Part shown: positions 17,879 to 52,885 of the stretch, piece by piece | Position numbering within the stretch: the stretch's first letter is position 1 | How the letters are laid out: each line of letters begins with the position of its first letter | NCBI GenBank assembly: GCA_030539155.1 | Contig: JAUNSP010000001.1 | Location: 1,470 to 65,469, forward strand | Length of the DNA: 64,000 bases | Direction: 5' to 3' | From: Clostridia bacterium | Lineage (GTDB): Bacteria > Bacillota > Clostridia > TANB77 > CAG-508 | Translations under genes and position numbers: made by a program | Notes under the pieces: model-generated | What the model saw: only the letters and a program-made list of their open reading frames with translations | What the model was told of the DNA's origin: nothing | The model's database searches: none

Positions 17879-19529
17879 TTAAATAGCCTTTTCAGCTATT
17901 TCATTCTTTTCATTTTGACACATATTTAAGGAATTAAATTTATAATAAACTGTTACTTTTTTATCTTGTGAAACTTGAATCTTATCAACTAATGATACTA
18001 ACATTGTTCTTGTAATATTCTGCATTTTCACAAAATCTTTAACTATTGGTAAAATATCTTCAACTTTATCTTCTTCTTTTTCAAATTGTTTCAATTTTCC
18101 AATATTCAACAACAAGTTATCTCTATTTTCCAATGCTCTATTATAAATTCTATTAAAATCTTCATCCTTAATAATGCCATTATACTTATCATCATAAATT
18201 TTGTCAATCTTTGAATTTAAGTCCTCTAACTTTTTATTCATCAAAGTTATTTGACTCTTTATCATATTTTTTCTATTATTAAATTCTTTTTCGGTTTGTT
18301 TTGCAGAGCCAATATATTTATTAGCTTCAAGATACTCTTTACATCTTTCTCTTATAAGCTTTAATATTTCTTCCGTTAATTTTTCTAAATTATTACTATG
18401 TGGAGTACATAACTTTAAACTTGTTGCTGTTGCATAAGTATTACATCTCACATAAAAAATTATCTTTCCACTTTTCTGTTTTTGAGGACATATACTTAAT
18501 TTTTTACCACATTCTTTGCATTCTAGTATTCCTTTTAATAGCCAATCATAAGTCTTTACTCGTGTTGCAGTCCTGCTTGTTATTTGTTCTTGAACTAAAT
18601 TATATGTTTCTACATCTATTATTGGTGTATGTTTTCCCTCTACTAAAATCCAATCTTCTTCTGGTAATGCAAGTATTTTTTTATTCTTATAGCTTACTTT
18701 TCTCATTGTTCCATTTTTCACATATCCAAGATATACTTTATTTTTTAAAATCTTAACAACAGTATTTCTGTTCCATCTTCGTTTTATTTCATCAACTGTT
18801 CTCGTATGCCTATTTCCAACTACATCACAAGGCAATCTTTGTTCTTCTTTTGTCATTATTTTAGCTATCTCTGTTGGTGTTATTCCTGTTTTAGCCATTT
18901 CAAATATTCTTTTTACTAACGGTGCAATTTCATCATCTACTATATAATGATTTTTATCTAACGGATCTTTCTTATAGCCATAAGCAGGATAAGTAACCAT
19001 TACTTTTCCCTCTTTTGCCCTTGTTTTCTTTCCATTTTTTATTTTCTTCGAGCAATCTCTTAAAAACCATTCATTAAAGAATGTTTTAAATTGAGTTATT
19101 TCTTGTGATGTTTCTATATCTCCTGTATCAATGTCATCACATACTGCAATAAATCTTATATTTTTTTCTATAAAGTATTCTTCTAAATAATAATCTACTT
19201 TTGATGATACTCTGCCAAATCTTGATAAGTCTTTTACAATGACCATATTTATTTTTCCATCTTCAATATCTTTTATCATTCTTTGGAAACCGTGGTCTAT
19301 CAAAGTTAGCTCCAGAATAACCATCATCAGTATAAATATCGTGTATCCTTATTCTATTCTCTCTACAAAAATTTTTTAAAAATATTTTTTGAGTGCTTAT
19401 ACTTCCACTCTCTTTTTCATCTTCTGATGTTTCTTTGACTCCATCTACATTATCTATTTCAATTTTTTCATTAGAAAGTCTTGGATATATCCCTGCCACA
19501 TATCTTTCGGGATTTCTTATTGTTATCAT
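17879..19529 (-). pseudogene. large serine recombinase (TndX/TnpX-like) interrupted by a +1 frameshift near 19300 (could be a sequencing indel)
   Basis: The 88-aa ORF 19263..19529 (MITIRNPERYVAGIYPRLSNEK...SISTQK...DDGYSGANFDRP) is the resolvase catalytic N-terminus, preceded by RBS AGAGGAGG. It continues in another frame as (G)FQRMIKDIEDGKINMVIVKDLSRFGR... through a 482-aa ORF with zinc-ribbon and coiled-coil regions. Deleting one base in ccacggtttcc restores ...FDRPGFQRMIKD... Confidence 0.75.
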
Positions 19530-20058: not shown

Positions 20059-20437
20059 TTTTACATTTTCCTTTCACTTATAATTTTTTATCAACTACAA
20101 GTGAATTAGTTTCTTCACATAGAGTGTTGCCACTCTCCCTTTTTTAAAGAGCTGTCCCTTTACAACCGTTAGCCAGACAGAAGTATCATAATCACTAATA
20201 TATATCTTCGCCAACATACACTTGCTTTCGTGTACTTTTTCCCTCGTTATATTCGCTATTTAATTTCTAACATTCGCCTTCTTGGAGCTCCATATACTAG
20301 ATAAAGTCTTGTAGTCAATTATGACACTCCAATAAAATTAAGGGTGTATTTGTCAATGTGCAAACATAACAATTCTTTTTGTTATGACTACAATGACAAT
20401 CGACACCCTCAAAATCTTAGTTGAAATTTAAAATTTC

Positions 20438-20638
20438 TTAAATTTTTTTAAACTTTTGTATATTTTGTATTATTTTTGCCTCTATAATAGCTTTACAGTC
20501 TTCATCAAATTTACCGTTTACAATACTATATTTGACAATTAAACCCTCATATTCTTTTAGGATTTTATAAATTGCATTCATATCTTTTTCATATTTTGCT
20601 TTTTTTAGTAAATTTACAAACATATCATTATCCATCAT
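20438..20638 (-). CDS. small protein resembling sigma-70 region 2 (Tn916 Orf8-position)
   Basis: A 66-aa protein. ...FVNLLKKAKYEKDMNAIYKILKEYEGLIVKYS...DCKAIIEAKIIQNIQKF resembles the region-2 helix pattern. Its start overlaps the stop of the upstream sigma-like gene. Confidence 0.45.
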   Translation of the reverse strand: MMDNDMFVNLLKKAKYEKDMNAIYKILKEYEGLIVKYSIVNGKFDEDCKAIIEAKIIQNIQKFKKI

Positions 20639-21048
20639 TTATCTCCTCGTATACTTTCTAAAAATTTCTTAATAGCTTGTGATTTTGAATTAGAGATGCT
20701 ATTTTCACTTACCCCTATAAAAATGGCTACATCTTTAATTGACATATCCTCAATTATATTCAAATACAATATAAGTTTTTGTCTATCAGATAATCTTTTC
20801 ATTGCATTATAATATCTAGGATCTGACATCTCATTTTCCAACTTTTTATAATTGATTTTTTCCTCCAAAGCACGAAAAATGCCCTTATCAAAATATGATA
20901 AAGACATTTTCTCAACCAAACCATCTGTTAAATTTAATTCAACTTTTCTTCTACAAGACATTTTTTTCTTATAATTTAATGACTCATTCGCAATTATTCT
21001 TGTAATAAAACTTGTAAATGTTGCTCTTATTTCTGCATTACTTACCAA
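20635..21048 (-). CDS. sigma-70 family region-4 HTH protein (Tn916 Orf7-like), TTG start
   Basis: A 137-aa protein. ...LSDRQKLILYLNIIEDMSIKDVAIFIGVSENSISNSKSQAIKKFLESI matches the sigma-70 region 4 HTH. The start is TTG at 21048 with RBS GGAGGAGGTGAG upstream. Confidence 0.65.
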   Translation of the reverse strand: MVSNAEIRATFTSFITRIIANESLNYKKKMSCRRKVELNLTDGLVEKMSLSYFDKGIFRALEEKINYKKLENEMSDPRYYNAMKRLSDRQKLILYLNIIEDMSIKDVAIFIGVSENSISNSKSQAIKKFLESIRGDK

Positions 21049-21403
21049 ACGAACTCACCTCCTCCCAATTTCTTAATTGGGGGAAATTAAGTTAAAAGGC
21101 TTGTCCTTTGTGAGTCCTTTTAGTAATATTCTAATGTATAATAAAATAACCAACTCACACAAAATAAAATTGTATGAGTAGGCTACTGTGTAATATATAT
21201 TATATTAAAATTCAATTTTTCCTTTCCTAAAACTATGCTAAATCTTGCACACCGTCTTGAGTTCATTGACTTTTTTTCTACTGCCCTCGTCATAATAGCA
21301 TATTTTATGTGTCGAATACTGTCGAAGTTTGCAAAAAGCACAAAAAAATATACGAAAATTGTAAAATTAACTTTCATATACTTTTTTCTACTATTTCATA
21401 AAA

Positions 21404-21736
21404 TTATAATGACTCCAAAAACTCTTTAATTGCTGCATTTAATAATCTGGTTACGGTAATTCCAGTTTTTTTATTCATCTTTTGCAAATCCCTTAAATTC
21501 TTTTCCCTTATCATAATACTTCTATAAGTTACAGTTTCTCTTTTAGGTTTCTCATAATAAGTAGGATTGTTTTTTACTACATAGTCTTCAATACAAACAT
21601 TGACTATCTCTCCAACAGTTGCACAAAATCTATTTCTAGTAAGTTTTATTACCTTTTCATAAAGTGTATCATCTATATTTATAGACTTTTTTATTGTTGG
21701 GTTATTTATATCATATAACCTGTCAATTGCACTCAT
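21404..21736 (-). CDS. tandem ribbon-helix-helix (two RHH repeats in one chain) DNA-binding protein, paralog A
   Basis: A 110-aa protein with two internal repeats fitting the RHH pattern: INIDDTLYEKVIKLTRNRFCATVGEIVNVCIEDYV and IMIREKNLRDLQKMNKKTGITVTRLLNAAIKEFLE. It aligns residue-by-residue with ORF 22728..23075. Confidence 0.55.
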   Translation of the reverse strand: MSAIDRLYDINNPTIKKSINIDDTLYEKVIKLTRNRFCATVGEIVNVCIEDYVVKNNPTYYEKPKRETVTYRSIMIREKNLRDLQKMNKKTGITVTRLLNAAIKEFLESL

Positions 21737-21918
21737 CTTTCAACCTCCTTATCCTCGTTTACGAATAAATAAATTATAATAATTTTTCATTTTAAATAAT
21801 ACTAGCAACTTTTCTTCTTTAACGAGTATAAATGGGTTAGACTATTGTCGAATTTTATAGTATAATGTATTTACACTTTATGAATACAGAATATAAATAT
21901 TTATGAAAGGAGGCTTTT

Positions 21919-22359
21919 ATGAAATTTCCAGATAATTTACTAGAATATTTATCTGATTCTGTCAATGTCTTACAAGCAGGAATACTTGTTACTGATTTAA
22001 CTAATATTGTTTATTCTAATGTTAGTTATTATAACTTTCCTGATACTTATGCTAATAAAGAAATTAGTACCGATATAAAAAATACTATAAGCAAATGGTC
22101 TAATACTAAAGACTTTGAAGAATCATTTTTTGAAATGCGTACAACAGATACTATAAACATTATTAACAATGATACTTCTAATTATACTGGTCAAATAATA
22201 TTTCCTATTTATCACAAAGGAAAACTTGCAGGAACTTTTATATGTTTTAGACTTCACAAAGATTATGTAGATACAAGTGTAAAACCTGCAATGACAACAA
22301 GACATTTTGTTGAACTAATGAGCAATGATAACTATATTTTGCAAAAGGGAGAATTATAA
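21919..22359 (+). CDS. hypothetical protein (146 aa)
   Basis: An ORF with an AAAGGAGG RBS, first gene of a 2-gene plus-strand operon bracketed by the two tandem-RHH genes. Confidence 0.5.
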   Translation: MKFPDNLLEYLSDSVNVLQAGILVTDLTNIVYSNVSYYNFPDTYANKEISTDIKNTISKWSNTKDFEESFFEMRTTDTINIINNDTSNYTGQIIFPIYHKGKLAGTFICFRLHKDYVDTSVKPAMTTRHFVELMSNDNYILQKGEL

Positions 22360-22360
22360 T

Positions 22361-22633
22361 ATGGAGAAAAAAGGAATTTTTGAGAATGAAGACTTAAATT
22401 TAATGATTGAATTATTTGAAAAATATTCTGATAATCTTAACGAAAATAAAGATTACAAAAAATACTGTAATAGGCTTTCAGAAATAACAGAATTAGTAGA
22501 AAAATTACCAAAAGAACAAATGAGTCTATTTGAAGAAGCAGACCAATTATACTGTCTAACTTCTAATTATGAAAAGTGCTTATTTTATTATCTAGGATTA
22601 CAAAAAGGTATTGGGATAGGCGAAATAAAATAG
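22361..22633 (+). CDS. hypothetical protein (about 91 aa)
   Basis: MEKKGIFENEDLNLMIELFEKYSDNLNENKDYKKYC... with the likely start at ATG 22361 and an AAAAGGGAGAA RBS. It is followed by a terminator. Confidence 0.45.
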   Translation: MEKKGIFENEDLNLMIELFEKYSDNLNENKDYKKYCNRLSEITELVEKLPKEQMSLFEEADQLYCLTSNYEKCLFYYLGLQKGIGIGEIK

Positions 22634-22682
22634 CTCCTTATATAAACACATATATAACAAGCTATAATTGAATTTTATAAAA

Positions 22683-22728
22683 TTAAGATAAGTTGATAAG
22701 TACACCATTAACTTATCTTATTTTTATC
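22683..22728 (+). terminator. rho-independent terminator of the 21919-22633 operon
   Basis: The hairpin aagataagttgataagtacaccattaacttatctt followed by atttttatc. Confidence 0.6.
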
Positions 22729-23075
22729 TATTTAATTTGTTCTAGTGCATTACTTATTGCAATGTTCACAAGTTTGTAGATTGATGTATGATATTTTTCA
22801 CTTAATCTATCTAACTCTTTTACAAGTGATTCTCTTATTAGCAATGAATGCTTAACTGAAATTTCATTTTTCTTTTTTATATAGACTCCTATATCTTCAC
22901 TTTTTGATAATTCCATAATTGATGCATTTATAAGTTTATTTACAGAGGCATCATATTTTTTATCTGATAACTTTTTCAAACTTTCATATAATGAATTATC
23001 AATTTCTATTGTTTTTTTAACTAAATGTTCTTTACTCCAAAATGTATCAAATGCTCCCATACGATTTTCCTCCAT
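22728..23075 (-). CDS. tandem ribbon-helix-helix DNA-binding protein, paralog B
   Basis: A 115-aa protein. IEIDNSLYESLKKLSDKKYDASVNKLINASIMEL and LLIRESLVKELDRLSEKYHTSIYKLVNIAISNALE show the same two-repeat RHH architecture as ORF 21404..21736. Confidence 0.55.
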   Translation of the reverse strand: MEENRMGAFDTFWSKEHLVKKTIEIDNSLYESLKKLSDKKYDASVNKLINASIMELSKSEDIGVYIKKKNEISVKHSLLIRESLVKELDRLSEKYHTSIYKLVNIAISNALEQIK

Positions 23076-23203
23076 TCTTGTATATTTTACTATGCTAGAA
23101 TGCAGATTTTAACCGTGCTGGTATGCAGAATTTTTTGTCAAAAAAAAGAAATATGCAAATATATACATATTTCTTTTCACTTATACAACTTGTAATTTAT
23201 TAT

Positions 23204-23431
23204 TTACCAATTTGATACAATTACATAAAAATACATTAGTGGAATGATTACTATTATAATTCCTATTATAAATATAATCCACAATAAAATTCTTATCCAT
23301 AATTTGCACTTTTTCCCGTTCTTTTTTTTGTATATATTACACACAATAAATCCAATAATTGTTGGAATCAAAATTTCCACACCAATTATTAACATAATAA
23401 TTAAAAGACCAACACCAGCTATTGCACCCAT
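23204..23431 (-). CDS. small hydrophobic membrane protein (75 aa)
   Basis: Two TM helices flank a KKKNGKKCK loop. An AAAGGAGAAG RBS lies upstream, and the gene is preceded by IR-containing leader module A. Confidence 0.5.
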   Translation of the reverse strand: MGAIAGVGLLIIMLIIGVEILIPTIIGFIVCNIYKKKNGKKCKLWIRILLWIIFIIGIIIVIIPLMYFYVIVSNW

Positions 23432-23487
23432 GATTTTTTCTTCTCCTTTATAACATCATGCTATTTTATTGTTATTTATATTATCAT

Positions 23488-23523
23488 AAAAGCAGATAAT
23501 TAGCAATGTCAAGTATCTGCTTT
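23488..23523 (-). promoter_or_regulatory. inverted-repeat operator/promoter module A (AAAGCAGATA-N15-TATCTGCTTT with TTGACA in the spacer)
   Basis: A 10-bp perfect inverted repeat whose spacer carries TTGACA, with TATGAT 18 nt downstream (minus orientation), 5' of gene 23204..23431. It is homologous to module B. Confidence 0.45.
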
Positions 23524-23541
23524 ATAACCTGTAATTTGTAA

Positions 23542-23748
23542 CTACCTATTATTTTCATCAATCGCTTTCTTGCTATTTCTATACATCATATTAAAGATTA
23601 AACCAAATATCATTGGTATAACAGCATAACCTGCGTTTACTTGTCCTTTATTATATAGTACATATCCTGCCCCAGCAAATGTTAAAATTAAAAATATAAT
23701 ATATAATATTAAAAATACTTTTACTTTCATTTTTTCTTTTTTAATCAT
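23542..23748 (-). CDS. small membrane protein (68 aa)
   Basis: MIKKEKMKVKVFLILYIIFLILTFAGAGYVLYNKG...IPMIFGLIFNMMYRNS has two TM helices and is preceded by leader module B. Confidence 0.5.
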   Translation of the reverse strand: MIKKEKMKVKVFLILYIIFLILTFAGAGYVLYNKGQVNAGYAVIPMIFGLIFNMMYRNSKKAIDENNR

Positions 23749-25081: not shown

Positions 25082-28000
25082 TTACTTGTTGTACTTATAT
25101 TCTTCTTTATCTTCAGCAACCATTTCTGTATAATCACATTCATCTTCGTTAACTTTATATTCAATAAAGTCATTATCTTCATCAACATTATTTAATCCAA
25201 AATACTTTTCAAAGAATTTTAGGATTTTTCCAATAATAGTTTGTTTTCTTTCATTTCTATTTCCACCACCAAATCTTCTCATTGGTGGTAATATCTTCTC
25301 TATATCAGTTCCTGTTGTTTTAACTTGTCCATCTCTAAAAGAATTATCAATAAATTTTCTAGTTTCTGTTTCATTTAAATCTTCATCTGATATAAGATTT
25401 TTTAAATCTGTTTCTTTTTGCTCCTTAACAAATTTATTCCAATCTCCATATACATCTGTTTTTGCATTTATTTTTGAAATAAATCCCTCTATTAATTCTT
25501 TCTTGGAGCGAAGTGCTAAACTTGATTTTATTGCCTTATCAATAGACACTAATATTTCCTTGTCAGTACAATTTGATTGATGATATTTAGCAACTAGCAT
25601 TAAGATATAATCTATATTTACTTCTACTTGTTTTACAAGTTCCATTTCAAATACTAGATCATCTTTTATACTTTCACTATCATCATTTCCTGGTCTTGGT
25701 TTAAATTCTTCGTATAAATCTGTATATGTTCCTATATAATCTTGGAAATCTCTTGGAGATAGTAACTCATTTCCCTCAAATTTATCAAATGATGATAATA
25801 TATTTCTTAATCTTAATATATTTCCCATTGATACTATAAAATCTTTTTTAGCTTTTTCTCCTATTATTTTTTCTCCTAATGGATATTTTTGAAGTAACAA
25901 TGCAATTCTTTCTTCATATCCTAGTTGTTTGTTGCCTTTTTCATCTTCATATCCATAATAGTAATCTTCATAAGATTTTAGAAGAACTATTCCACTTGCA
26001 TTTTTATCTCCAAATAGAGCTATTGCATCATTAGTTTGGTCTTGCAAGTTTCTGAAACATACTATATTTCCATAAGATTTTACTGAATTTAATATACGGT
26101 TTGTTCTTGAAAATGCTTGTATTAGTCCGTGCATTTTTAAGTTTTTATCTACCCATAATGTATTTAAAGTAGTTGCATCAAATCCTGTTAAGAACATATT
26201 TACAACTATAAGCAAATCAACTTCTCTGTGTTTTACTCTATCTGATAAGTCTTTGTAGTAATCTTGGAATCCGTTTCCCTCTGATGAAAAGTTTGTTTTA
26301 AATTTCTTGTTATACTCTTTTATTGCAAAGTCTAAAAATTCTCTTGAACTTTGATCCAATAAATCTGTCTCAAAACCTTCATCATCCAAAATACCATCTG
26401 AAGTATCTTCTTCATTTTGTGCAAATGAATATATTGTAGCAATACTCAAATCTATATTTTTTTCTTCTAATTGCTTTTTAAATTCCAAATAATATTTCTT
26501 TGCCATTGGAATTGATGCTACTGCAAACATTGAGTTAAATCCATTCATTCTCTTTCCTTTTAAATCGTAGAATGAACTTCTTTTTGTTTTTTGGTCAAAG
26601 TGTTCTATTATATAGCTTACAACTTTGCTAACTCTTTCGTGAGATGCAAGTGCCTCCTCTGTGTTTATAGCCTTTACTTCTTTGTCTGTCATATTTTCTT
26701 TTTGTTTTAAAGTATTTATATAATCAATTCTAAAAGGTAATACATTTCCATCATTTATTGCATCTACTATTGTATATGTATGTAATTTATCTCCAAATGC
26801 TTGTGCAGTTGTGCAGAAATCTGGATTAACCTTATTTACTGCATTTTTAGCAAATATAGGTGTTCCTGTAAATCCAAACAAGTGATAATTTTTGAAATTA
26901 CTAACTATCATCTTGTGCATATCTCCAAAATGTGAGCGATGACATTCATCAAATATTAAGACTAAATGTTTCTGATATACAGGATGATTTTTGTTTCTTT
27001 TTACAAATTCACTTAATTTTTGAATTGTTGTTACAATTATTCTTGAAGTATTATCTTCTAATTGTTTCTGCAATACTCTTGTACTTCTGTTTCCATTTGC
27101 AGCACCTTTTTCAAATCTGTCATATTCTTTCATTGTTTGATAGTCTAAATCTTTTCTATCTACTACAAACAATACTTTATCTATATAATCTAAGCCACTT
27201 GCAAGTTGTGCAGTCTTAAATGATGTTAATGTTTTTCCAGAGCCTGTTGTATGCCATATATAACCACCAGCCTCTATTGTTCCCATTTTTTTATAATTAG
27301 TTGCTACTTGTATTCTGTTTAGTATCTTTTCTGTTGCTACTATTTGATATGGTCGCATAACAAGTAGTAAATCTTCAGATGTAAATACACAATATTTTGT
27401 TAGTATATTCAATATTGTATGTTTTGAGAAGAAAGTTCTAGTAAAATCAACTAAATCTGGAATAACTTTATTACTTCCATCAGCCCAAAAAGATGTAAAT
27501 TCAAAGCTGTTACTTGTTTTTTTACTTTTATTTCTTGTATTTGTTTGTTCTTTTATATGACTTTCTCTTGTAGTATTTGAATAGTATTTTGTATTTGTTC
27601 CATTTGATATAACAAATATTTGCACATATTCATATAAACCACTACCTGCCCAAAAACTATCTCTTTGGTATCTGTTTATTTGGTTAAAAGCCTCTTTTAA
27701 AGGAACTCCTCTCCTTTTAAGTTCAATATGAACAAGAGGTAATCCGTTTACAAGAACAGTTACATCATATCTATTATCATAATTCCCATTATTCTCTACA
27801 TATTGATTTATTACTTGTAATCTATTGTTATGAATATTCTTTTTATCTATTAAATAAATATTTTTAGATGTTCCATCATCTCTTTTTAAAACTTGAATAT
27901 AGTCTTCTTGTATTTTTCTCGTTTTTTCTACAATACCATCATTATTATTTGAAATATTGTTATTGAAAAATCTTTCCCATTCGCTATCTGTAAATTTATA

Positions 28001-28216
28001 ATCATTTAATAATTCAAGTTCTTTACAAAGATTATCTTTTAGTGAATTACTATCGTGAATTTTTAAATAATCATATCCTTGTTCTCCAAGCATTCTTATA
28101 AACTCATTTTCTAATGCAGATTCACTTTGATAGGCATCTGATTTCTTTTTTAATGGCTCATATTCTGTTACAACTGTGGAATCATTCATTTCCATTACTA
28201 CATTATATTTACTCAT
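25082..28216 (-). CDS. hsdR: Type I restriction enzyme R subunit
   Basis: A 1044-aa protein with SF2 helicase motifs (HTTGSGKT Walker A, FDECHRS DEAH-like box). It lies downstream of hsdS and hsdM in the operon arrangement. Confidence 0.9.
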   Translation of the reverse strand: MSKYNVVMEMNDSTVVTEYEPLKKKSDAYQSESALENEFIRMLGEQGYDYLKIHDSNSLKDNLCKELELLNDYKFTDSEWERFFNNNISNNNDGIVEKTRKIQEDYIQVLKRDDGTSKNIYLIDKKNIHNNRLQVINQYVENNGNYDNRYDVTVLVNGLPLVHIELKRRGVPLKEAFNQINRYQRDSFWAGSGLYEYVQIFVISNGTNTKYYSNTTRESHIKEQTNTRNKSKKTSNSFEFTSFWADGSNKVIPDLVDFTRTFFSKHTILNILTKYCVFTSEDLLLVMRPYQIVATEKILNRIQVATNYKKMGTIEAGGYIWHTTGSGKTLTSFKTAQLASGLDYIDKVLFVVDRKDLDYQTMKEYDRFEKGAANGNRSTRVLQKQLEDNTSRIIVTTIQKLSEFVKRNKNHPVYQKHLVLIFDECHRSHFGDMHKMIVSNFKNYHLFGFTGTPIFAKNAVNKVNPDFCTTAQAFGDKLHTYTIVDAINDGNVLPFRIDYINTLKQKENMTDKEVKAINTEEALASHERVSKVVSYIIEHFDQKTKRSSFYDLKGKRMNGFNSMFAVASIPMAKKYYLEFKKQLEEKNIDLSIATIYSFAQNEEDTSDGILDDEGFETDLLDQSSREFLDFAIKEYNKKFKTNFSSEGNGFQDYYKDLSDRVKHREVDLLIVVNMFLTGFDATTLNTLWVDKNLKMHGLIQAFSRTNRILNSVKSYGNIVCFRNLQDQTNDAIALFGDKNASGIVLLKSYEDYYYGYEDEKGNKQLGYEERIALLLQKYPLGEKIIGEKAKKDFIVSMGNILRLRNILSSFDKFEGNELLSPRDFQDYIGTYTDLYEEFKPRPGNDDSESIKDDLVFEMELVKQVEVNIDYILMLVAKYHQSNCTDKEILVSIDKAIKSSLALRSKKELIEGFISKINAKTDVYGDWNKFVKEQKETDLKNLISDEDLNETETRKFIDNSFRDGQVKTTGTDIEKILPPMRRFGGGNRNERKQTIIGKILKFFEKYFGLNNVDEDNDFIEYKVNEDECDYTEMVAEDKEEYKYNK

Positions 28217-28226
28217 AACTTGCTCC

Positions 28227-29408
28227 TTAATTTTCTTCTTTTAATTCTTTAAATGTTAATAATTTATCTCTGTAATATTCATATTGCTTTTGTCTTGCTT
28301 CTATTTCAGCAGGTAAACCTTCTGAAATGTTATTTGTTAACTCATAAAATTTTTCCAATATGTTTGCAATCTTCTCTTGTTTATCTAATGTAGGAATTGG
28401 AATCACTATTTCTTTTAGTGCTGGGACACTAGAATGAACTACTTTGCTTTTTACTTTCCCCTTACTTTTTTGCATTTGAGCATTAGTTGTTGATAGTACA
28501 TAGGCTAAATATTTCGGATTCTGTTTATGTTTCATCACAACAATATCGCCACCTGCTAAGCACTTATTTTGTCCTAGATATACTATGGACTTTCCTATTT
28601 CTTCAACACTTTCACCTGTTATTGCAAACAATACATCTCCATATTCAAAATATTTTTTTGATTTTATTTTATTTATATCAGTATGTGATATGCAATTATC
28701 AAAAGTTATATTATATGATGTATATATTTCTCCATATCTAACACAATCAATTCCATCCTCTGTTACTTCATCTCTTTTGATTCCTGCTCCTCTATACATA
28801 TCTGTTGCAATTTCATCTAAACTTTTATATTCAACATCTTCATTTTCAAATTTTAAAATTTCATTTCTATAATATTCATATTGTTTTTGTCTAGCTTTCA
28901 GCTCTGCTGAAAGCTCTGTAAAATCGTCTAAAATACGGACAATTTCGCATTGTACTTCCAATGGAGGTACAGGCACAGTTAATTGAGAATATATACTTAT
29001 CCAATGTCTTGTGTGTGTTCCTGGCTCAAATTTAATGCAAGACATTGCATAATAAATATATCTAAAATTAACATTTTCATTTATAGGTCTAAGTATTTTC
29101 ATTGCTGAAGATTTAACTTTAAAACCAAAATCCACCCAATGGAAGCCTGTAGTAAAATCATCAAATATAATAGTCGGTTCTTTTTTACTAGCAATATAAA
29201 TTCCGTTTGTTTCGTTTGTGTAACCTAATATGAATGTTTGTCCAGCCGTTAATACTGGTATATCGTATGAATCATCATATTTAGTGGATTTAACAATATA
29301 CTTAGTTGGCTGTTCATATTTTAAGCAACTTTCCAATTTCTTATATTCGACTCCATTCGGACATAATCGCTCAATTAATTCTTCTAATTTGCTCATATTA
29401 CACCTCAA
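28227..29408 (-). CDS. hsdS: Type I restriction-modification specificity subunit (two TRDs); likely start at MSKLEEL (29396)
   Basis: A 393-aa protein with two target-recognition halves separated and followed by the conserved repeat EIARQKQYEYYRNEIL / EIEARQKQYEYYRDKLL. It overlaps the hsdM stop. Confidence 0.85.
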   Translation of the reverse strand: MRCNMSKLEELIERLCPNGVEYKKLESCLKYEQPTKYIVKSTKYDDSYDIPVLTAGQTFILGYTNETNGIYIASKKEPTIIFDDFTTGFHWVDFGFKVKSSAMKILRPINENVNFRYIYYAMSCIKFEPGTHTRHWISIYSQLTVPVPPLEVQCEIVRILDDFTELSAELKARQKQYEYYRNEILKFENEDVEYKSLDEIATDMYRGAGIKRDEVTEDGIDCVRYGEIYTSYNITFDNCISHTDINKIKSKKYFEYGDVLFAITGESVEEIGKSIVYLGQNKCLAGGDIVVMKHKQNPKYLAYVLSTTNAQMQKSKGKVKSKVVHSSVPALKEIVIPIPTLDKQEKIANILEKFYELTNNISEGLPAEIEARQKQYEYYRDKLLTFKELKEEN

Positions 29409-30951
29409 TTTCTGAAATTATTTTACTAATTTCGTCACGAAGTACTTGCTCTCTTGCAACTATTGTTTCAATTTCTTTGTTTAATTCTACAATGTCAATT
29501 TTTTCTCTTGTATCTTCTTGTTCAACATAAGTTGATACAGATAAATTATAGTCATTTTCTTCTATCTCTTTATTTGAAACAAGTTTAGATACATATTCTT
29601 TATCTTGTCTATCTGCAAATATTTTAACAATATTTTCTATATTTTCATCTGTTAATTTATTGTTGTTTGTAACTTTTACACATTCATTTGTTGCATCTAT
29701 AAATAATGTACTATTATCTTTTTTACTCTTTTTTAATACCATTATACAAGTTGCAATAGATGTACCAAAGAATAAGTTTCCTGGCAATTGAATTATGCTA
29801 TCTACGAAGTTATTATCTATCAAATATTTTCTGATTTTTTGTTCTGCTCCACCTCTATATAAAATTCCTGGGAAACAAACAATTGATGCAGTTCCATTTG
29901 TTGCTAACCAAGATAAAGAGTGCATTATAAATGCAAAATCTGCTTTTGATTTTGGTGCTAATACTCCTGCTGGAGAATATCTTGGGTCATTAATTAAAAG
30001 TGCATTATCATCTCCTGCCCATTTTATTGAATATGGAGGATTAGACACTATAACCTCAAAAGGCTCATCATCCCAATGTTGTGGTGTAAGTAATGTATCT
30101 TCACAAGCTATATCAAATTTATCATATCCTATATCGTGTAAAAACATATTTATCCTGCATAAGTTATAAGTAGTAATATTTATTTCTTGTCCATAGAAAC
30201 CATTTCTAACATTTTCTTTTCCAAGTATTTTAGATGCTTTTAATAAAAGTGAGCCAGATCCACAAGCTGGGTCATACACTTTGTTTACTGATGTTTTTCC
30301 TACTATTGCAAGTTTAGTTAAAAGTTCACTAACTTCTTGTGGTGTATAAAATTCTCCACCAGACTTACCTGCATTAGAAGCATACATACTCATTAAAAAT
30401 TCATAAGCATCTCCAAAAGCATCAATTTTGTTATCTTGATAATTTCCAAGAGGAATATTGGCAATTCCATCTAATATTTTAACTAATTTTTCATTTCTCT
30501 TTGCAACTGTTGCTCCTAATTTATTACTATTAACATCTATATCAGCAAATAAACCATAAAAGTCATCCTCGCTTTCTGCTCCTTTTGCTGAGTTTTCAAT
30601 GCTATTAAATACTTTTTCTAATGTTTCATTCAAGTTTTCATCATTTTTTGCTCTTTGACAAATATTACAAAACAATTCAGATGGCAATATAAAAAATCCT
30701 TTTTCTTTTACTAAACTTGTTCTTTCTGATTCTGCCATTTCATCTGATATTTTTGAATAATCAAATTCTTTATCTCCAGCTTTTCTTTCTCCATCATTTA
30801 TATATTTAGTAATGTTTTCTGATATGTATCTATAAAACATTATTCCTAATATGTATTGTTTGAAATCCCACCCATCTACTGAGCCTCTTAAATCATCTGC
30901 TATTGACCATATTGCTTTATGTATTTCTTCTCTTTCTCTTGAATTATTCAT
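29398..30951 (-). CDS. hsdM: Type I restriction-modification N6-adenine DNA methyltransferase subunit
   Basis: A 517-aa protein with HsdM N-domain, AdoMet motif I (DPACGSGSLL) and motif IV NPPYS. Confidence 0.9.
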   Translation of the reverse strand: MNNSREREEIHKAIWSIADDLRGSVDGWDFKQYILGIMFYRYISENITKYINDGERKAGDKEFDYSKISDEMAESERTSLVKEKGFFILPSELFCNICQRAKNDENLNETLEKVFNSIENSAKGAESEDDFYGLFADIDVNSNKLGATVAKRNEKLVKILDGIANIPLGNYQDNKIDAFGDAYEFLMSMYASNAGKSGGEFYTPQEVSELLTKLAIVGKTSVNKVYDPACGSGSLLLKASKILGKENVRNGFYGQEINITTYNLCRINMFLHDIGYDKFDIACEDTLLTPQHWDDEPFEVIVSNPPYSIKWAGDDNALLINDPRYSPAGVLAPKSKADFAFIMHSLSWLATNGTASIVCFPGILYRGGAEQKIRKYLIDNNFVDSIIQLPGNLFFGTSIATCIMVLKKSKKDNSTLFIDATNECVKVTNNNKLTDENIENIVKIFADRQDKEYVSKLVSNKEIEENDYNLSVSTYVEQEDTREKIDIVELNKEIETIVAREQVLRDEISKIISEIEV

Positions 30952-50962: not shown

Positions 50963-52885
50963 TTATCTGTAATATTTCCAGACTTCCCATATTTTCATTT
51001 CTTTAATTTCTCTTGATGTTCTTGCTCTTTCTCTAAATTGTCGTAATTCAACATTGTGTTTTTCATTTCCCATTCCAAACTTTTTATTCATTTCCCAGTG
51101 GGAAATGTCTGGTAGTTTTGTAATAATAGGATACATTCCTGTTGGAATTACTAATATATAAGGTCTTTCAACTCTCATAACTTCATCTTCTGTAAGTAAT
51201 GCTCTACCAATTAAATTCATAGACTCTGAATTATTGCTATTACTATATTTGCTATAACTATTGCTTTTACTATAACTTGTTGTTGTATATTGTCCTAACT
51301 TTTTTGAAATTACACTTGCAGTTTCAAAACTAGCAGTTTTAAGATATAACCATATTTGACAGTTATCTCTTATATTCTCTGCAATTTCTCTACCGTACTT
51401 ATTTTCAAGTTGTGCAAATGATTGCAAGAATATATTAAATCTAATTTTTCTACCACCTGCAACTGTTAGCATATTTGAAAATGCAGGTATTGTTGTAAAA
51501 TTTCCAAACTCATCTAAAACATAATTAACTCTATTTTTTAATTCTCCACCTCGCTGGTCTGCCTCCTCAACTAATGCTGTATAATTTTGATATACAAATA
51601 AACTTGCAAGTGGATAATATGTTGTTTTTTCATCTGGTAAAATAATATAAGTTGCTATCTTTTCATTTCCTGCATCTTGCAATCTGAACTCACTTTCACA
51701 AGACATTCCATATATTGATTTGCTTGTAAATAATTTTAAAGTTGCTAATGCAGATGTAAAAAAACTGCCCCTTGTTTTCTCTGGTGCAATTCGTGCAATA
51801 GAGAAAATTATAGATGCAGGATGACTTGGTGGTAAATCTTCAATATATTTATTTATTGGCATTTGATTATTTCCTATTGGTCTGCACATTTCACTAATGA
51901 ATAAGAATACATTTGTAAGATTTTGATACTCTGGATTTTCTTTGTTATCAAATACTACACTCATTATTGCTCCTGCAATAACTGCCATTTCTCCATCTCT
52001 CCATATTTTTTCCATTTTTGAACTATCATCTCCAACAAGACTCTCTGTAATATCCCACGAATACTCCTCTGCTTTTCTATAATCCTCCCTATTTACTGCA
52101 TCAATTACAGGTTGTAGGAAATTATATCTTGTAGATTTTGTAGGATTTTTAAAATCTATTGTAATTATTTTATAACCTAGACTTTCCAAGTACCTTGATG
52201 TATATTGACAAAGTTCAGCTTTTGGATCTGAAATTATCATACTTTCTCCTGCAAGTCCTAAATTTCCAATAGATTCTAAAACAACACTACGAGTTTTACC
52301 ACTACGAGTTGCTCCAACGGTTAAGGTATGAATATTATTATCTATATAATAAACATTTTCCTTTCCTATTTTTTTTTCAAAACCTACTACAATTCCACCA
52401 CTTTTGCATTTGTTATCTTTTTTCTTATCCAGTACATTACACTTAAATTCATTTGCAAATTCTTTTTTAGTAAGCCACCTGCTAGTTCCGTGTTGTCCTT
52501 CTCCTGCAATTATTGGTGTTTTAATTTTATTAGTTATTCGTACTGTGTCTGTTTTATAAGCAGTTCTACTATTAGAATATAGTAAAACAATTATTATAAC
52601 TTCTGTTAATAATAGGCAAAGCATTAGGAGTCTTTGATATTGATTATCTTTTATAATTGTTCTTATTATTTCAATGTTTAGATTTAAACTTTGATTAGTC
52701 ATTTTTAAATGAACTATTGCAGATATATAAATACTCAATGGAATATTTATAATTGTAAATATTAAACATTGAATCCACTTTTTACTCAAACTCAATTTCC
52801 TCCTCTCTTTGTAAAGAAAATTGTTCTTTGTATTTTTGTATCTGTTGTTTTGATAAATCTGTAAAATCTTTTGTCTTTTTATCAT
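50963..52885 (-). CDS. VirD4/TraG-family type IV coupling protein
   Basis: A 640-aa protein with N-terminal TM helices, Walker A GATRSGKTRS and the TraG/TraD family core (IISDPKAELC..., ILPDEKTTYYPLASLFVYQ...). Confidence 0.8.
   Translation of the reverse strand: MIKRQKILQIYQNNRYKNTKNNFLYKERRKLSLSKKWIQCLIFTIINIPLSIYISAIVHLKMTNQSLNLNIEIIRTIIKDNQYQRLLMLCLLLTEVIIIVLLYSNSRTAYKTDTVRITNKIKTPIIAGEGQHGTSRWLTKKEFANEFKCNVLDKKKDNKCKSGGIVVGFEKKIGKENVYYIDNNIHTLTVGATRSGKTRSVVLESIGNLGLAGESMIISDPKAELCQYTSRYLESLGYKIITIDFKNPTKSTRYNFLQPVIDAVNREDYRKAEEYSWDITESLVGDDSSKMEKIWRDGEMAVIAGAIMSVVFDNKENPEYQNLTNVFLFISEMCRPIGNNQMPINKYIEDLPPSHPASIIFSIARIAPEKTRGSFFTSALATLKLFTSKSIYGMSCESEFRLQDAGNEKIATYIILPDEKTTYYPLASLFVYQNYTALVEEADQRGGELKNRVNYVLDEFGNFTTIPAFSNMLTVAGGRKIRFNIFLQSFAQLENKYGREIAENIRDNCQIWLYLKTASFETASVISKKLGQYTTTSYSKSNSYSKYSNSNNSESMNLIGRALLTEDEVMRVERPYILVIPTGMYPIITKLPDISHWEMNKKFGMGNEKHNVELRQFRERARTSREIKEMKIWEVWKYYR

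What the first reader, a model, noticed from the sequence alone, without database searches (positions are those of the whole stretch)
21404..23075. Two paralogous single-chain tandem-RHH proteins bracketing a 2-gene operon
ORFs 21404..21736 and 22728..23075 align along their whole length (KK[ST]I.ID[DN][ST]LYE…KL….A[ST]V…[IV]N..I…IRE..[LV].[DE]L….[TS][IV]..L[LV]N.AI…LE). Each contains two ribbon-helix-helix-like repeats fused in one polypeptide, so each is a covalent pseudo-dimer. They sit in opposite transcriptional contexts, one divergent and one convergent, around a plus-strand pair of unknown genes (146 aa and about 91 aa) that has its own terminator. Duplicated fused-RHH regulators flanking an unknown two-gene cassette resemble an addiction/defence or transfer-control module.
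Basis: seen in the sequence. Interest (0 to 1): 0.5.

Follow-up and report, generated by a model that had tools for sequence, protein, structure and literature searches.

The report
Twin-repressor sensor cassette on mobile elements
Two related DNA-binding proteins, each a fused double ribbon-helix-helix, flank a small sensor-plus-partner operon; the same uncharacterised four-gene unit recurs on many mobile elements of gut Clostridia and probably keeps a sensor/effector pair tightly switched off.

Summary
The two minus-strand ORFs are paralogues (30% identity, E=3e-17). RHH-A is predicted with high confidence as beta-alpha-alpha twice in one chain, and its best structural matches are F-plasmid TraY, a natural single-chain ribbon-helix-helix (RHH) protein. 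The two "unknown" genes are now identified. The 146-aa protein is a stand-alone GAF domain closest to the C-terminal domain of SpoVT. The 90-aa protein is a divergent DUF6809. The cassette is not a local accident. In 49 loci (16 GAF lineages), a divergent RHH gene sits beside the GAF gene in 43 of 43 testable cases. A second, convergent RHH follows in 35 of 35 loci whose second gene is DUF6809 (or, in one locus, an HTH). GAF and DUF6809 are fused in many relatives. DUF6809 evolves fastest and is swapped as an allele. In a three-gene variant a ToxN RNase, without ToxI RNA repeats, replaces DUF6809 and the second RHH. All loci lie on integrative, conjugative or phage-like elements of uncultured Clostridia. 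The function is unproven. The best reading is a self-contained module in which two repressors gate a GAF sensor/neutraliser and an interchangeable effector. A life-cycle switch for the element is a serious rival. A TraY-like relaxosome role and a classical RHH-antitoxin system are unlikely.

The parts
21404..21736 (-). RHH-A: a single-chain tandem ribbon-helix-helix protein (110 aa, clade A), transcribed divergently from the GAF gene.
   Evidence: ORF. AF2 model with beta-alpha-alpha twice, pLDDT 88.6. Foldseek top hits are F TraY chains. Internal repeat by hhalign, P=1.3e-4. 228 homologues at 60-73% identity.
21153..21179 (-). Terminator-like hairpin plus T-run downstream of RHH-A. This suggests RHH-A is monocistronic and insulated from the sigma-like gene at 20635-21048.
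   Evidence: Terminator scan. Fold -20.2 kcal/mol, z=-7.1.
21737..21918 (.). Divergent control region between RHH-A and the GAF gene. It contains a leader site TACGAATA (21760-21767), a palindromic -10-like ATTATAAT (about 21773-21780), an invariant AATAATACT block at the -35 position of the RHH-A promoter (21795-21803), and ACGAGTATAAATGGGTT (21822-21838), which overlaps the -35 of the GAF promoter.
   Evidence: Alignments of the region from 7 and 12 loci. Motif positions. Binding by the RHH proteins is inferred, not shown.
21838..21866 (+). Sigma-70-type promoter of the GAF-DUF6809 operon (TAGACT, 17 nt, TATAAT).
   Evidence: 10 of 12 consensus match. TTTTATAGTATAAT and GGTTAGAC are conserved in L010, L014 and L012.
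21882..21890 (+). GAATACAGA in the leader of the GAF operon. The same 9-mer class occurs as the repeat core in the RHH-B promoter, so this is a candidate RHH-B site.
   Evidence: GWATRCAGA occurs 8 times in 64 kb against 2.4 expected. Three of the eight lie in the cassette's control regions, all on the same strand. The pattern was chosen after seeing the data and is only loosely conserved in L010 and L015.
21919..22359 (+). Stand-alone GAF-domain protein of the SpoVT C-terminal type (146 aa). It has no DNA-binding domain.
   Evidence: AF2 pLDDT 90.8. Foldseek: SpoVT C-terminal domain 2w1r, E=4e-7, TM 0.80, followed by CodY GAF domains. Pfam SpoVT_C is below threshold at 23.2 bits. The family has about 100 representatives among 1.84 billion proteins, with true SpoVT in the weak tail.
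22361..22633 (+). Divergent DUF6809 protein (90 aa) with the C-terminal motif Y..CL.YYLG. It is probably translationally coupled to the GAF gene, with 1 nt between the GAF stop and its start.
   Evidence: Pfam DUF6809: 23.5 bits for this protein (cut-off 27). 9 of 14 family members match, best E=2.8e-8. It is fused to the GAF domain in P0124, P0144, P0146, P0150, P0158, P0160, P0164, P0212, P0215, P0219, P0238 and P0249.
22684..22720 (.). Hairpin between the convergent DUF6809 and RHH-B genes; a likely bidirectional terminator.
   Evidence: Inverted repeat I1. RNA folds of -22.2 and -29.7 kcal/mol, z=-5.3 and -5.9.
22728..23075 (-). RHH-B: paralogous single-chain tandem RHH protein (clade B), convergent with the operon. 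The probable start is 23060, giving 110 aa.
   Evidence: BLASTP against RHH-A, E=3e-17. Arc-like PHROG hits in both halves. Orthologues at 62-66% identity in the same position in L010 and L015, and a clade-B RHH at that position in L031. Start codon argument.
23084..23130 (-). RHH-B promoter with two tandem 23-nt direct repeats (TCTGCAT.C.AGCA..GT.AAA). The -35 (TTAAAA, 23107-23112) and the -10 (TAAAAT, 23084-23089) each fall inside a repeat.
   Evidence: Repeat family D4. Promoter scan. Minus-strand sequence. The block is conserved upstream of the RHH-B orthologues in L010 and L015. Autorepression is inferred.

Best explanation
The region is a self-contained four-gene cassette carried by mobile elements of gut Clostridia.

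**The RHH genes (shown and inferred).** Two separately transcribed single-chain RHH proteins act as sequence-specific repressors; their genes appear to be monocistronic. Their predicted DNA-reading residues differ (N20, Y71, R72 in A against E, K, H in B). This suggests different DNA specificities.

**Inferred mechanism.**
- RHH-A binds asymmetric sites in the 182-bp divergent control region. One site overlaps the -35 of a strong sigma-70-type promoter, another lies in its own leader. It would thereby repress both the GAF operon and itself.
- RHH-B represses itself through two 23-bp direct repeats that cover its -35 and -10. It may also block the GAF operon at a related site in the leader.
- The repressed operon encodes a two-part protein. 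The GAF domain, homologous to the sensor/oligomerisation domain of SpoVT, is the constant sensor or neutraliser. The second gene is an exchangeable output: DUF6809 here, often fused to the GAF domain, and a ToxN RNase or an HTH protein in variants.
- Most likely the GAF protein holds its partner inactive until a ligand or an invading-element cue is sensed. On this reading the cassette works as a repressor-gated addiction, exclusion or abortive-infection unit that benefits the element.

**What is shown:** the folds, the paralogy, the gene order, the conservation of the cassette, the fusions, the rate gradient and the conserved non-coding blocks.

**What is inferred:** DNA binding at those blocks, repression, GAF-partner contact, and any toxic or defensive output.
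For: **Fold.** RHH-A is a tandem RHH. The 146-aa protein is a GAF domain.

**Census of 49 loci in 16 GAF lineages.**
- A divergent RHH gene is present in 43 of 43 loci with enough flank.
- A convergent RHH gene is present in 35 of 35 loci whose second gene is DUF6809 or an HTH.
- It is present in 0 of 9 ToxN or GAF-only loci.
- All five RHH-family members looked up by context fall in the cassette or a variant.

**GAF and DUF6809 act together.** They are fused repeatedly, including in forms below 30% identity to each other.

**Exchangeable second gene.** In variants it is a full-length ToxN (E=2e-49) or an HTH_26 protein. The ToxN variant has no ToxI-type repeats and no Rfam match. An inhibitor encoded by the preceding GAF gene would therefore be the simplest arrangement.

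**Rate gradient.** Median identity within type II cassettes is RHH 80.5%, GAF 65% and DUF6809 45%. Two otherwise 98-100% identical elements differ only across the DUF6809 ORF.

**Conserved control DNA.** Conserved blocks sit on promoter elements. The RHH-A operator-like 17-mer occurs only once in the 64-kb window, which fits local control.

**Variable position on the host element.** The cassette lies at the far end of a small integrase element (L017), and next to methylases, ECF sigma genes or cargo in others (L024, L026, L034, L044). This fits an autonomous module.
Against: - No toxin, defence or antitoxin family matches the window proteins in Pfam, NCBIfam, PADLOC or PHROGs.
- DUF6809 is a small helical protein with no known activity. 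An HTH protein can occupy the same slot, which suggests a regulatory rather than a toxic output.
- In several lineages the divergent RHH points towards excision or early genes. This fits a life-cycle switch at least as well.
- In the L034/L046 lineage (12 contigs) the GAF-DUF6809 reading frame is broken while both RHH genes stay intact. This suggests the RHH proteins have a value of their own.
- The link between the second RHH and DUF6809 may reflect shared descent, with only 2-3 independent losses.
- The operator assignments are not independent tests. The 9-mer link to RHH-B was found after the fact. A general search for shared 12-mers was not significant for type I cassettes.
- Some loci were retrieved with an RHH query, so only the 34 loci found with a GAF query test co-occurrence without bias.
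Confidence: 0.4

Rival explanations
1. The cassette is the life-cycle (immunity or induction) switch of the mobile element, analogous to the immI region of phage P22 (mnt, then divergent promoters, then arc-ant). The RHH proteins would be maintenance repressors. GAF-DUF6809 would be a signal-sensing antirepressor or co-regulator that decides excision, transfer or early gene expression.
For: - The divergent RHH gene points towards the recombination or early modules in four different element types. These are sigma-like plus HTH_16 plus serine recombinase (window, L006, L010), Xis plus tyrosine integrase (L021), and a phage-like ERF/Gp3-like early operon (L001, L019).
- From my own knowledge of Tn916, the cassette occupies the slot next to the orf7/orf8-like genes.
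- A GAF domain is a typical ligand sensor of transcription factors such as SpoVT and CodY.
- An HTH protein can replace DUF6809.
- The RHH genes stay intact where the GAF-DUF6809 frame is broken.
- RHH master repressors of conjugative plasmids are known, for example ArtA of pSK41.
Against: - In other lineages the RHH genes lead into nothing relevant. In L017 the neighbour is a convergent membrane protein at the distal end of the element. In L044 it is a convergent methylase. In L026 and L034 it is cargo or ECF sigma genes.
- RHH-A is followed by a terminator and a 355-nt gap before the sigma-like gene.
- No second copy of the RHH-A operator-like 17-mer exists elsewhere in the 64-kb element.
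- ToxN in the output slot and the allele-swapping of DUF6809 are not expected of a simple switch.
Confidence: 0.3
2. The GAF protein is a mimic or sensor of the host sporulation regulator SpoVT. The element would use it, together with neighbouring Spo0A-like and sigma-like regulators, to read or interfere with sporulation of its Clostridial host.
For: - SpoVT's C-terminal domain is the closest structure.
- True SpoVT proteins appear in the tail of the profile search and share the Y..Q.I.P motif.
- Orphan Spo0A-like response regulators lie next to the cassette in L010, L025/L026/L033, L031 and L048.
- Serine-recombinase elements are common hosts of the cassette.
Against: - Identity to SpoVT is only about 17%, so hetero-oligomerisation is pure speculation.
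- The window element has no Spo0A-like gene.
- P_GAF looks like a housekeeping-sigma promoter, not a sporulation-sigma one.
- This reading explains neither DUF6809, nor ToxN, nor the two RHH genes.
Confidence: 0.08
3. RHH-A and RHH-B are TraY-like DNA-bending accessory factors for conjugative DNA processing (relaxosome at oriT) or for site-specific recombination.
For: The best structural match is F-plasmid TraY, a single-chain RHH that binds oriT as a train of monomers. The window is an integrative conjugative element with a relaxase, a coupling protein and a VirB4-like ATPase.
Against: - Sequence identity to TraY is 10-14%, and there is no Pfam TraY hit.
- The relaxase (53130-54071) is 31 kb away and has its own small upstream gene. 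L044 has a separate NikA-like accessory gene beside its relaxase.
- The RHH genes are strictly linked to the GAF gene instead.
- The cassette also occurs on small integrase-only and phage-like elements with no relaxase in the stretch examined.
Confidence: 0.05
4. It is a classical type II toxin-antitoxin arrangement in which the RHH proteins are the antitoxins of the 146-aa and 90-aa proteins.
For: Weak Pfam hit of RHH-A to VapB_antitoxin (21.1 bits, below the cut-off of 23.4). JGI names one homologue 'predicted CopG family antitoxin'.
Against: - The RHH genes lie on the opposite strand and appear to be transcribed separately from the operon.
- The two RHH units fill the whole 110 aa, leaving no toxin-binding tail.
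- The partner proteins match no toxin family.
- The RHH proteins are much more conserved than the supposed toxins.
Confidence: 0.04

Closest known systems
F-plasmid TraY; also VirC2 of pTiC58 and AvtR of an archaeal lipothrixvirus
   Same: Two RHH units in one polypeptide form a monomeric pseudo-dimer. TraY is the best structural match (TM about 0.7). TraY monomers bind direct and inverted repeats side by side. This fits the tandem 23-bp repeats at the RHH-B promoter.
   Different: There is no detectable sequence relationship (10-14% identity). The genes are not next to a relaxase or oriT. They are strictly linked to a GAF gene. There are two paralogues per cassette, and they probably act as promoter repressors rather than relaxosome parts.
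Phage P22 immI region (Mnt, Arc, Ant). Comparison from my own knowledge; not tested here.
   Same: Two paralogous RHH repressors. One is transcribed divergently from an operon whose product must be kept off. The divergent promoters are tightly packed.
   Different: Arc and Mnt are ordinary dimers or tetramers, not single-chain. Arc lies inside the operon. The controlled product is the Ant antirepressor, not a GAF-DUF6809 pair. Here the second RHH is convergent.
Omega-epsilon-zeta three-component toxin-antitoxin system of pSM19035. Comparison from my own knowledge; not tested here.
   Same: A separate RHH protein (omega) regulates transcription. The neutraliser itself has no DNA-binding domain. 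The system is carried on a mobile element.
   Different: Omega lies in the same operon and is a dimer. Epsilon and zeta are unrelated to GAF, DUF6809 or ToxN. No toxicity has been shown here.
ToxIN / AbiQ type III toxin-antitoxin systems
   Same: The three-gene variant (L006, L012, L014, L016) carries a full-length ToxN-family protein in the slot held by DUF6809 in the window.
   Different: There is no ToxI RNA repeat array. Instead a GAF-protein gene lies 15-27 nt upstream, with a divergent RHH gene beyond it. The window itself has no ToxN.
SpoVT, the forespore regulator of Bacillus and Clostridia
   Same: The 146-aa protein has the GAF fold of SpoVT's C-terminal domain (TM 0.80) and shares its Y..Q.I.P.....G motif.
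   Different: It lacks the AbrB-type DNA-binding domain. It is encoded on mobile elements, paired or fused with DUF6809, and any DNA binding would have to come from separate RHH proteins.
ArtA of pSK41, the RHH master repressor of a Gram-positive conjugative plasmid
   Same: An RHH repressor encoded opposite to the genes it controls on a conjugative element.
   Different: ArtA is a dimer with six sites spread over the plasmid. Here the proteins are single-chain, come in pairs, and the recognisable sites are only local.

Membership tests
Ribbon-helix-helix superfamily, single-chain (tandem) architecture | Two beta-alpha-alpha units in one polypeptide | tested here: met
   The AF2 model of RHH-A shows beta 14-22, alpha 23-35, alpha 41-55, then beta 69-77, alpha 78-91, alpha 95-109, with pLDDT 88.6. 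RHH-B is assigned by homology only.
Ribbon-helix-helix superfamily, single-chain (tandem) architecture | Structural similarity to solved single-chain RHH proteins | tested here: met
   Foldseek hits TraY chains at E=1e-4 and TM 0.66-0.70, and also VirC2, single-chain Arc and AvtR.
Ribbon-helix-helix superfamily, single-chain (tandem) architecture | The two halves are homologous (internal duplication) | tested here: met
   hhalign of the half-profiles gives an in-register alignment at P=1.3e-4 and 20% identity. The support is weak but specific.
Ribbon-helix-helix superfamily, single-chain (tandem) architecture | A Pfam RHH model is matched above its curated cut-off | tested here: inconclusive
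   The window proteins score below threshold: RHH_3 18.4 bits against 21.6, and VapB_antitoxin 21.1 against 23.4. Many homologues carry a precomputed PF12651 hit.
TraY relaxosome accessory proteins | Sequence membership in the TraY family | tested here: not met
   No Pfam TraY hit. Identity in the structural alignments is 10-14%.
TraY relaxosome accessory proteins | Gene lies beside the relaxase or oriT | tested here: not met
   The relaxase is at 53130-54071, 31 kb from the cassette. The cassette also occurs on elements with no relaxase in the stretch examined.
TraY relaxosome accessory proteins | Binds oriT and stimulates nicking | not testable with these tools
   Needs biochemistry.
Type II toxin-antitoxin system with an RHH antitoxin | Antitoxin and toxin are co-transcribed | tested here: not met
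   Both RHH genes lie on the opposite strand with their own promoter-like and terminator-like sites.
Type II toxin-antitoxin system with an RHH antitoxin | Antitoxin has a toxin-binding extension beyond the DNA-binding domain | tested here: not met
   The two RHH units span residues 14-109 of 110.
Type II toxin-antitoxin system with an RHH antitoxin | Partner belongs to a recognised toxin family | tested here: not met
   The window's 146-aa and 90-aa proteins hit no toxin model in Pfam, NCBIfam or PADLOC.
Type III toxin-antitoxin system (ToxIN) | ToxN-family toxin present | tested here: not met
   None in the window. ToxN is present only in the variant loci L006-L009, L012, L014 and L016 (PF13958, E=2e-49).
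Type III toxin-antitoxin system (ToxIN) | Array of tandem antitoxin RNA repeats upstream of the toxin | tested here: not met
   No such array in the window cassette or in the ToxN variants. No Rfam match at gathering score.
SpoVT | C-terminal GAF domain of the SpoVT type | tested here: met
   Foldseek hits 2w1r at E=4e-7 and TM 0.80. The Pfam SpoVT_C match is below cut-off at 23.2 bits against 27.5. True SpoVT proteins are hit by the family profile at about 3e-9.
SpoVT | N-terminal AbrB-type DNA-binding domain | tested here: not met
   The protein starts directly with the first GAF helix at residue 5. Family members are 130-150 aa and lack the GRIVIPKEIR segment seen in P0214, P0222 and P0242.
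DUF6809 (PF20648) | Match to the Pfam profile | tested here: inconclusive
   The window protein scores 22.9-23.5 bits against a cut-off of 27. 9 of 14 aligned relatives match, best E=2.8e-8. It is best treated as a divergent member.
Known anti-phage defence systems (PADLOC-DB v2) | Any cassette protein matches a defence-system model | tested here: not met
   The only hit is a chance-level one (E=0.064) for RHH-B.
P22 immI-like control region (functional analogy only) | Two paralogous RHH regulators plus a divergent promoter pair controlling an operon | tested here: met
   The promoters are consensus matches conserved across loci, not mapped transcription starts.
P22 immI-like control region (functional analogy only) | The controlled product is an antirepressor | not testable with these tools
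   Nothing bears on the activity of GAF-DUF6809.

The most novel reading that the evidence does not exclude
The cassette defines a new family of systems in which a protein controls an effector. A SpoVT-type GAF protein would be a ligand-sensing or invader-sensing neutraliser for interchangeable effectors: DUF6809 here, and a ToxN RNase without any ToxI RNA in the variant. The whole unit would be gated by two single-chain RHH repressors. This would make ToxN a toxin with a protein partner. It would also give DUF6809 a first function, as a fast-evolving effector or specificity subunit used by mobile elements for addiction, exclusion or phage defence.
Probability: 0.22. Interest if true: 0.72.

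Novelty: new variant of a known kind. Interest (0 to 1): 0.55.

Why it matters
Natural single-chain RHH proteins are rare; TraY, VirC2 and AvtR are the known examples. Here a whole family of them, more than 200 sequence clusters, is tied to one conserved gene cassette.

The cassette gives a genomic context, and a testable partner, to two orphan domains: a stand-alone SpoVT-type GAF domain and DUF6809, which no paper in the searched library mentions.

The ToxN variant lacks an RNA antitoxin array. If the GAF protein controls that ToxN, the variant would link type III toxins to a protein partner.

The cassette sits on integrative conjugative elements and phage-like elements of uncultured gut Clostridia. 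Those elements carry restriction systems, adhesins and other cargo. Whatever the cassette controls, whether stability, exclusion, defence or induction, bears on how these elements persist and spread.

The parts are small and the predicted operators are defined. The hypotheses can therefore be tested directly with reporter fusions, gel shifts and toxicity assays.

Tried and rejected
**Database searches that found nothing useful**
- PADLOC, NCBIfam and PHROGs gave no family assignment beyond weak Arc-like hits.
- PDB sequence-profile searches with the RHH and DUF6809 alignments gave only chance-level hits.
- Viral contig scans with the GAF and RHH profiles found nothing.
- tblastn of RHH-A against deposited phages and plasmids, and of GAF against phages, found nothing. 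A DUF6809 query gave only chance hits in Vibrio phages. The family is so far seen only in metagenomes and metagenome-assembled genomes.
- Literature searches found no description of the cassette and no paper mentioning DUF6809. The NetFlax GAF-containing toxin is an unrelated GAF plus FtsL-like membrane protein.

**Analyses that led nowhere**
- A search for ToxI-like repeats or other tandem arrays in the window and in the ToxN variant found none.
- A general test for shared 12-mers between the two control regions of each locus was not significant for type I cassettes. It was positive only where the two RHH proteins are close relatives. The RHH-B site in the GAF leader therefore rests on a 9-mer alone.
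- The 64-aa ORF in the gap after RHH-A (21183-21377) has no relatives in any locus and was dropped.
- Rfam over 17-25 kb gave only sub-threshold matches.

**Limits**
- The first word-index search with the 146-aa protein found only 3 relatives. A profile was needed to reach the family.


Full report
**1. Setting**

The window has about 27% G+C with a strong strand bias. RHH-A and the 146-aa protein are identical to two 'hypothetical proteins' of a metagenome-assembled Clostridia bacterium.

From about 17.9 kb to beyond 63.8 kb the minus strand carries an integrative conjugative element. Its genes include:
- a MobA/VirD2-type relaxase (53130-54071), a coupling protein (50963-52885), TrbL, a VirB4-like ATPase and an M23 peptidase;
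- sortases and SpaA/thioester adhesins;
- a type I restriction-modification system (25082-30951) and an AraC/GyrI regulator;
- the cassette under study;
- a sigma-70 region-4 protein and an HTH_16 protein (20438-21048);
- a large serine recombinase (17879-19529).

**2. The observation**

The two minus-strand proteins align over their full length at 30% identity, E=3e-17.

An AlphaFold2 model of RHH-A, built on 59 homologues, has pLDDT 88.6 and pTM 0.81. It consists of beta-alpha-alpha twice, joined by a short linker. Its best PDB matches are chains E, F and G of the F-plasmid relaxosome (E=1e-4, TM 0.66-0.70). VirC2, DndE, permuted single-chain Arc and AvtR follow. The relaxosome paper states that three TraY molecules are bound, and that F TraY is a monomer holding the whole RHH dimer fold in one polypeptide. 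The two halves of RHH-A align in register by profile comparison (P=1.3e-4).

RHH-B was not modelled. Its tandem fold rests on homology to RHH-A and on Arc-like hits in both halves. Its start is probably the ATG at 23060 rather than 23075, because a GGAGG lies 8 nt upstream and its orthologues begin MGAFD.

The second plus-strand gene most likely starts at 22361 and encodes 90 aa. A hairpin at 22684-22720 folds far better than shuffled sequence on both strands. A separate terminator follows RHH-A.

**3. What the two 'unknown' genes are**

The 146-aa protein models with pLDDT 90.8 as a GAF domain. Its closest solved structure is the C-terminal domain of B. subtilis SpoVT (E=4e-7, TM 0.80), followed by CodY GAF domains.

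A profile search of 1.84 billion representative proteins finds only about 100 relatives. Most are stand-alone proteins of 130-150 aa. About nine are 211-245 aa. True SpoVT proteins (AbrB domain plus GAF) appear in the weak tail.

The 90-aa protein is a divergent DUF6809. 9 of 14 aligned relatives match PF20648, best E=2.8e-8. The family shares a C-terminal Y..CL.YYLG motif.

The longer GAF proteins are GAF-DUF6809 fusions, including forms with less than 30% identity to each other. No other fusion partner recurs. The two proteins therefore very probably act as one unit.

**4. Is the cassette real?**

I collected 48 further loci through exact-protein look-ups, a genome scan and a metagenome scan. 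I then annotated them with HMMs built from my own alignments. They fall into 16 lineages at 80% GAF identity.

| Feature | Count |
|---|---|
| Divergent RHH gene next to the GAF gene | 43 of 43 loci with enough flank; all 16 lineages |
| Convergent RHH gene where the second gene is DUF6809 (11 lineages) or HTH_26 (L011) | 35 of 35 |
| Convergent RHH gene in the ToxN (2 lineages) or GAF-only (L017 group) variants | 0 of 9 |

The 34 loci found with a GAF query are an unbiased test. The loci found with an RHH query are not, but all five RHH relatives sampled lie in the cassette or a variant.

**5. Variation**

The RHH proteins form three clades. The window, L010 and L031 have clade A at the divergent position and clade B at the convergent one. 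L015 has clade A' at the divergent position and clade B at the convergent one. Most other cassettes have clade A' and clade A. L011 has two clade B proteins. So a clade A gene can occupy either position, and each cassette normally pairs two different clades.

The residues I infer to lie on the beta-ribbon differ between A and B (N20, Y71, R72 against E, K, H). They are nearly the same in A and A' (read; inference).

Median identity within the commonest cassette type is RHH 80.5%, GAF 65% and DUF6809 45%. Two elements that are 98-100% identical elsewhere drop to 50-70% DNA identity exactly across the DUF6809 ORF.

In the three-gene variant the second gene is a full-length ToxN (PF13958, E=2e-49), starting 15-27 nt after the GAF gene. 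No ToxI-type repeat array and no Rfam match are present.

**6. Control DNA**

The 182-bp region between RHH-A and the GAF gene is conserved in L010, L012 and L014. Its RHH-proximal 105 bp are conserved upstream of every clade A gene, whichever position that gene occupies. The region holds:
- a good sigma-70-type promoter for the GAF operon (TAGACT, 17 nt, TATAAT, at 21838-21866);
- a block ACGAGTATAAATGGGTT that overlaps its -35 and is unique in the window;
- an invariant AATAATACT at the -35 position of the RHH-A promoter;
- a T[AT][CT]GA[AG][CT]A motif in the RHH-A leader at a fixed position.

Upstream of RHH-B, two tandem 23-nt direct repeats each contain one promoter hexamer. The block is conserved in L010 and L015. 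The repeat core GWATRCAGA occurs 8 times in the window against 2.4 expected. One of the three cassette copies lies in the GAF leader.

Direct repeats suit monomeric, asymmetric RHH proteins, as seen for TraY. All protein-DNA assignments are inferences. A general shared-12-mer test was not significant for cassettes of the window's type.

**7. Where the cassette sits**

It is always on mobile DNA of uncultured Clostridia, but on different kinds of element:
- conjugative or mobilisable elements with serine recombinases (window, L006, L010, L034, L046-L048);
- an Xis/tyrosine-integrase element (L021);
- phage-like elements with Gp3-like and ERF genes (L001, L019);
- a 6-kb integrase element where RHH plus GAF lie at the distal end (L017);
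- relaxase plus methylase elements (L044).

In several cases the divergent RHH gene points towards recombination or early genes. In others it does not.

**8. Interpretation**

Four things are firm. The region is a conserved, autonomous, mobile-element-borne cassette. Its constant core is a single-chain RHH gene and a divergent GAF gene. GAF works together with an exchangeable second protein. The RHH genes are separately transcribed and sit on conserved promoter-overlapping DNA blocks.

My preferred mechanism (confidence 0.4) is a repressor-gated sensor/effector unit. The RHH proteins keep a strong promoter shut. The GAF protein senses a cue and holds or releases its partner (DUF6809, ToxN or HTH). 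The support is the ToxN variant without an RNA antitoxin, the fusions, the fast evolution and allele swapping of DUF6809, and the variable position of the cassette on its host elements.

The main rival (0.3) is a life-cycle switch of the P22 immI type, with GAF-DUF6809 as antirepressor. Its support is the frequent position beside recombination modules and the intact RHH genes in the L034/L046 lineage, where the GAF-DUF6809 frame is broken.

The other rivals are weaker:
- A sporulation-related role of the SpoVT-like domain is possible but thin.
- A TraY-like relaxosome role is unlikely, because the relaxase is 31 kb away and the linkage is to GAF.
- A classical RHH-antitoxin system is unlikely, because the RHH genes are on the opposite strand, have no toxin-binding tail and are more conserved than their supposed toxins.

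**9. Novelty**

No library model, solved structure by sequence, deposited phage or plasmid, or paper in the searched collection describes the cassette or DUF6809. The parts are of known kinds: RHH repressors and a GAF sensor. The combination is not described: paired single-chain RHH proteins, a stand-alone SpoVT-type GAF domain, DUF6809, and a ToxN variant without RNA repeats. I rate it a new variant of a known kind, of moderate interest, and readily testable.

Noticed in passing
window 17879-19529 (-): The large serine recombinase at the end of the element is split into two reading frames near 19290. Residues 1-86 and 85-551 of its L010 homologue match in different frames. This is a frameshift, a pseudogene or an assembly error, and the element may not be able to excise.
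   Followed up: partly
window 20117-20192 (-): A sub-threshold match to the pemK RNA motif (RF02913, 28.1 bits against 34.8, E=0.06), overlapping a weaker dinG RNA match. It lies in the gap between the HTH_16 gene and a 73-aa ORF.
   Followed up: no
L006-L009, L012, L014, L016 (for example L014 6001-7005): A full-length ToxN-family gene sits 15-27 nt downstream of a GAF gene. There is no ToxI-like repeat array and no Rfam hit. One metagenome-assembled genome (CANPTO01) carries two such elements.
   Followed up: partly
L001 6420-6745 compared with L002: Two otherwise 98-100% identical elements differ only across the DUF6809 coding segment (50-70% DNA identity). In L001 that segment is fused in frame to the GAF gene, giving a 243-aa protein.
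   Followed up: yes
L010 3669-4491; L026 735-1463; L031 2-715; L048 3918-4640: Orphan Spo0A-like response regulators (receiver domain plus Spo0A_C-like domain) lie next to the cassette in four or five lineages. In L048 the gene is divergent from the clade A RHH gene, taking the place of the GAF operon. L017 has a Spo0A_C-only gene nearby.
   Followed up: partly
L034-L043, L046, L047 (for example L034 5001-5700): A widespread human-gut lineage (12 contigs) has the GAF gene cut short at 123 aa and a DUF6809 segment without a clear start. Both flanking RHH genes are intact. It is either a decayed fusion or a split form.
   Followed up: partly
L011 1749-3959: Next to the variant cassette with the HTH_26 second gene lie a 123-aa protein that looks like a four-helix-bundle protein and a 373-aa reverse transcriptase. 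This could be a retron-like or diversity-generating unit.
   Followed up: no
window 23136-23141 (-): A perfect TTGACA lies just upstream of the RHH-B repeats but has no -10 hexamer at 16-18 nt. A palindrome at 23144-23177 follows it.
   Followed up: no
window 23204-23748 (-): Two small, very hydrophobic ORFs (75 and 68 aa) lie between RHH-B and the AraC/GyrI regulator. They match no family.
   Followed up: no
L046 6814-7008; L048 8003-8528: A MazE/AbrB-type antitoxin gene and a PemK toxin gene lie a short distance downstream of the divergent RHH gene in two lineages. They are probably separate toxin-antitoxin cargo.
   Followed up: no
window 21049-21403: A 355-nt gap separates RHH-A from the sigma-like gene, with no conserved ORF. 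Gaps of 430-825 nt follow the divergent RHH gene in L001, L006 and L021. Their content is unexplained.
   Followed up: partly
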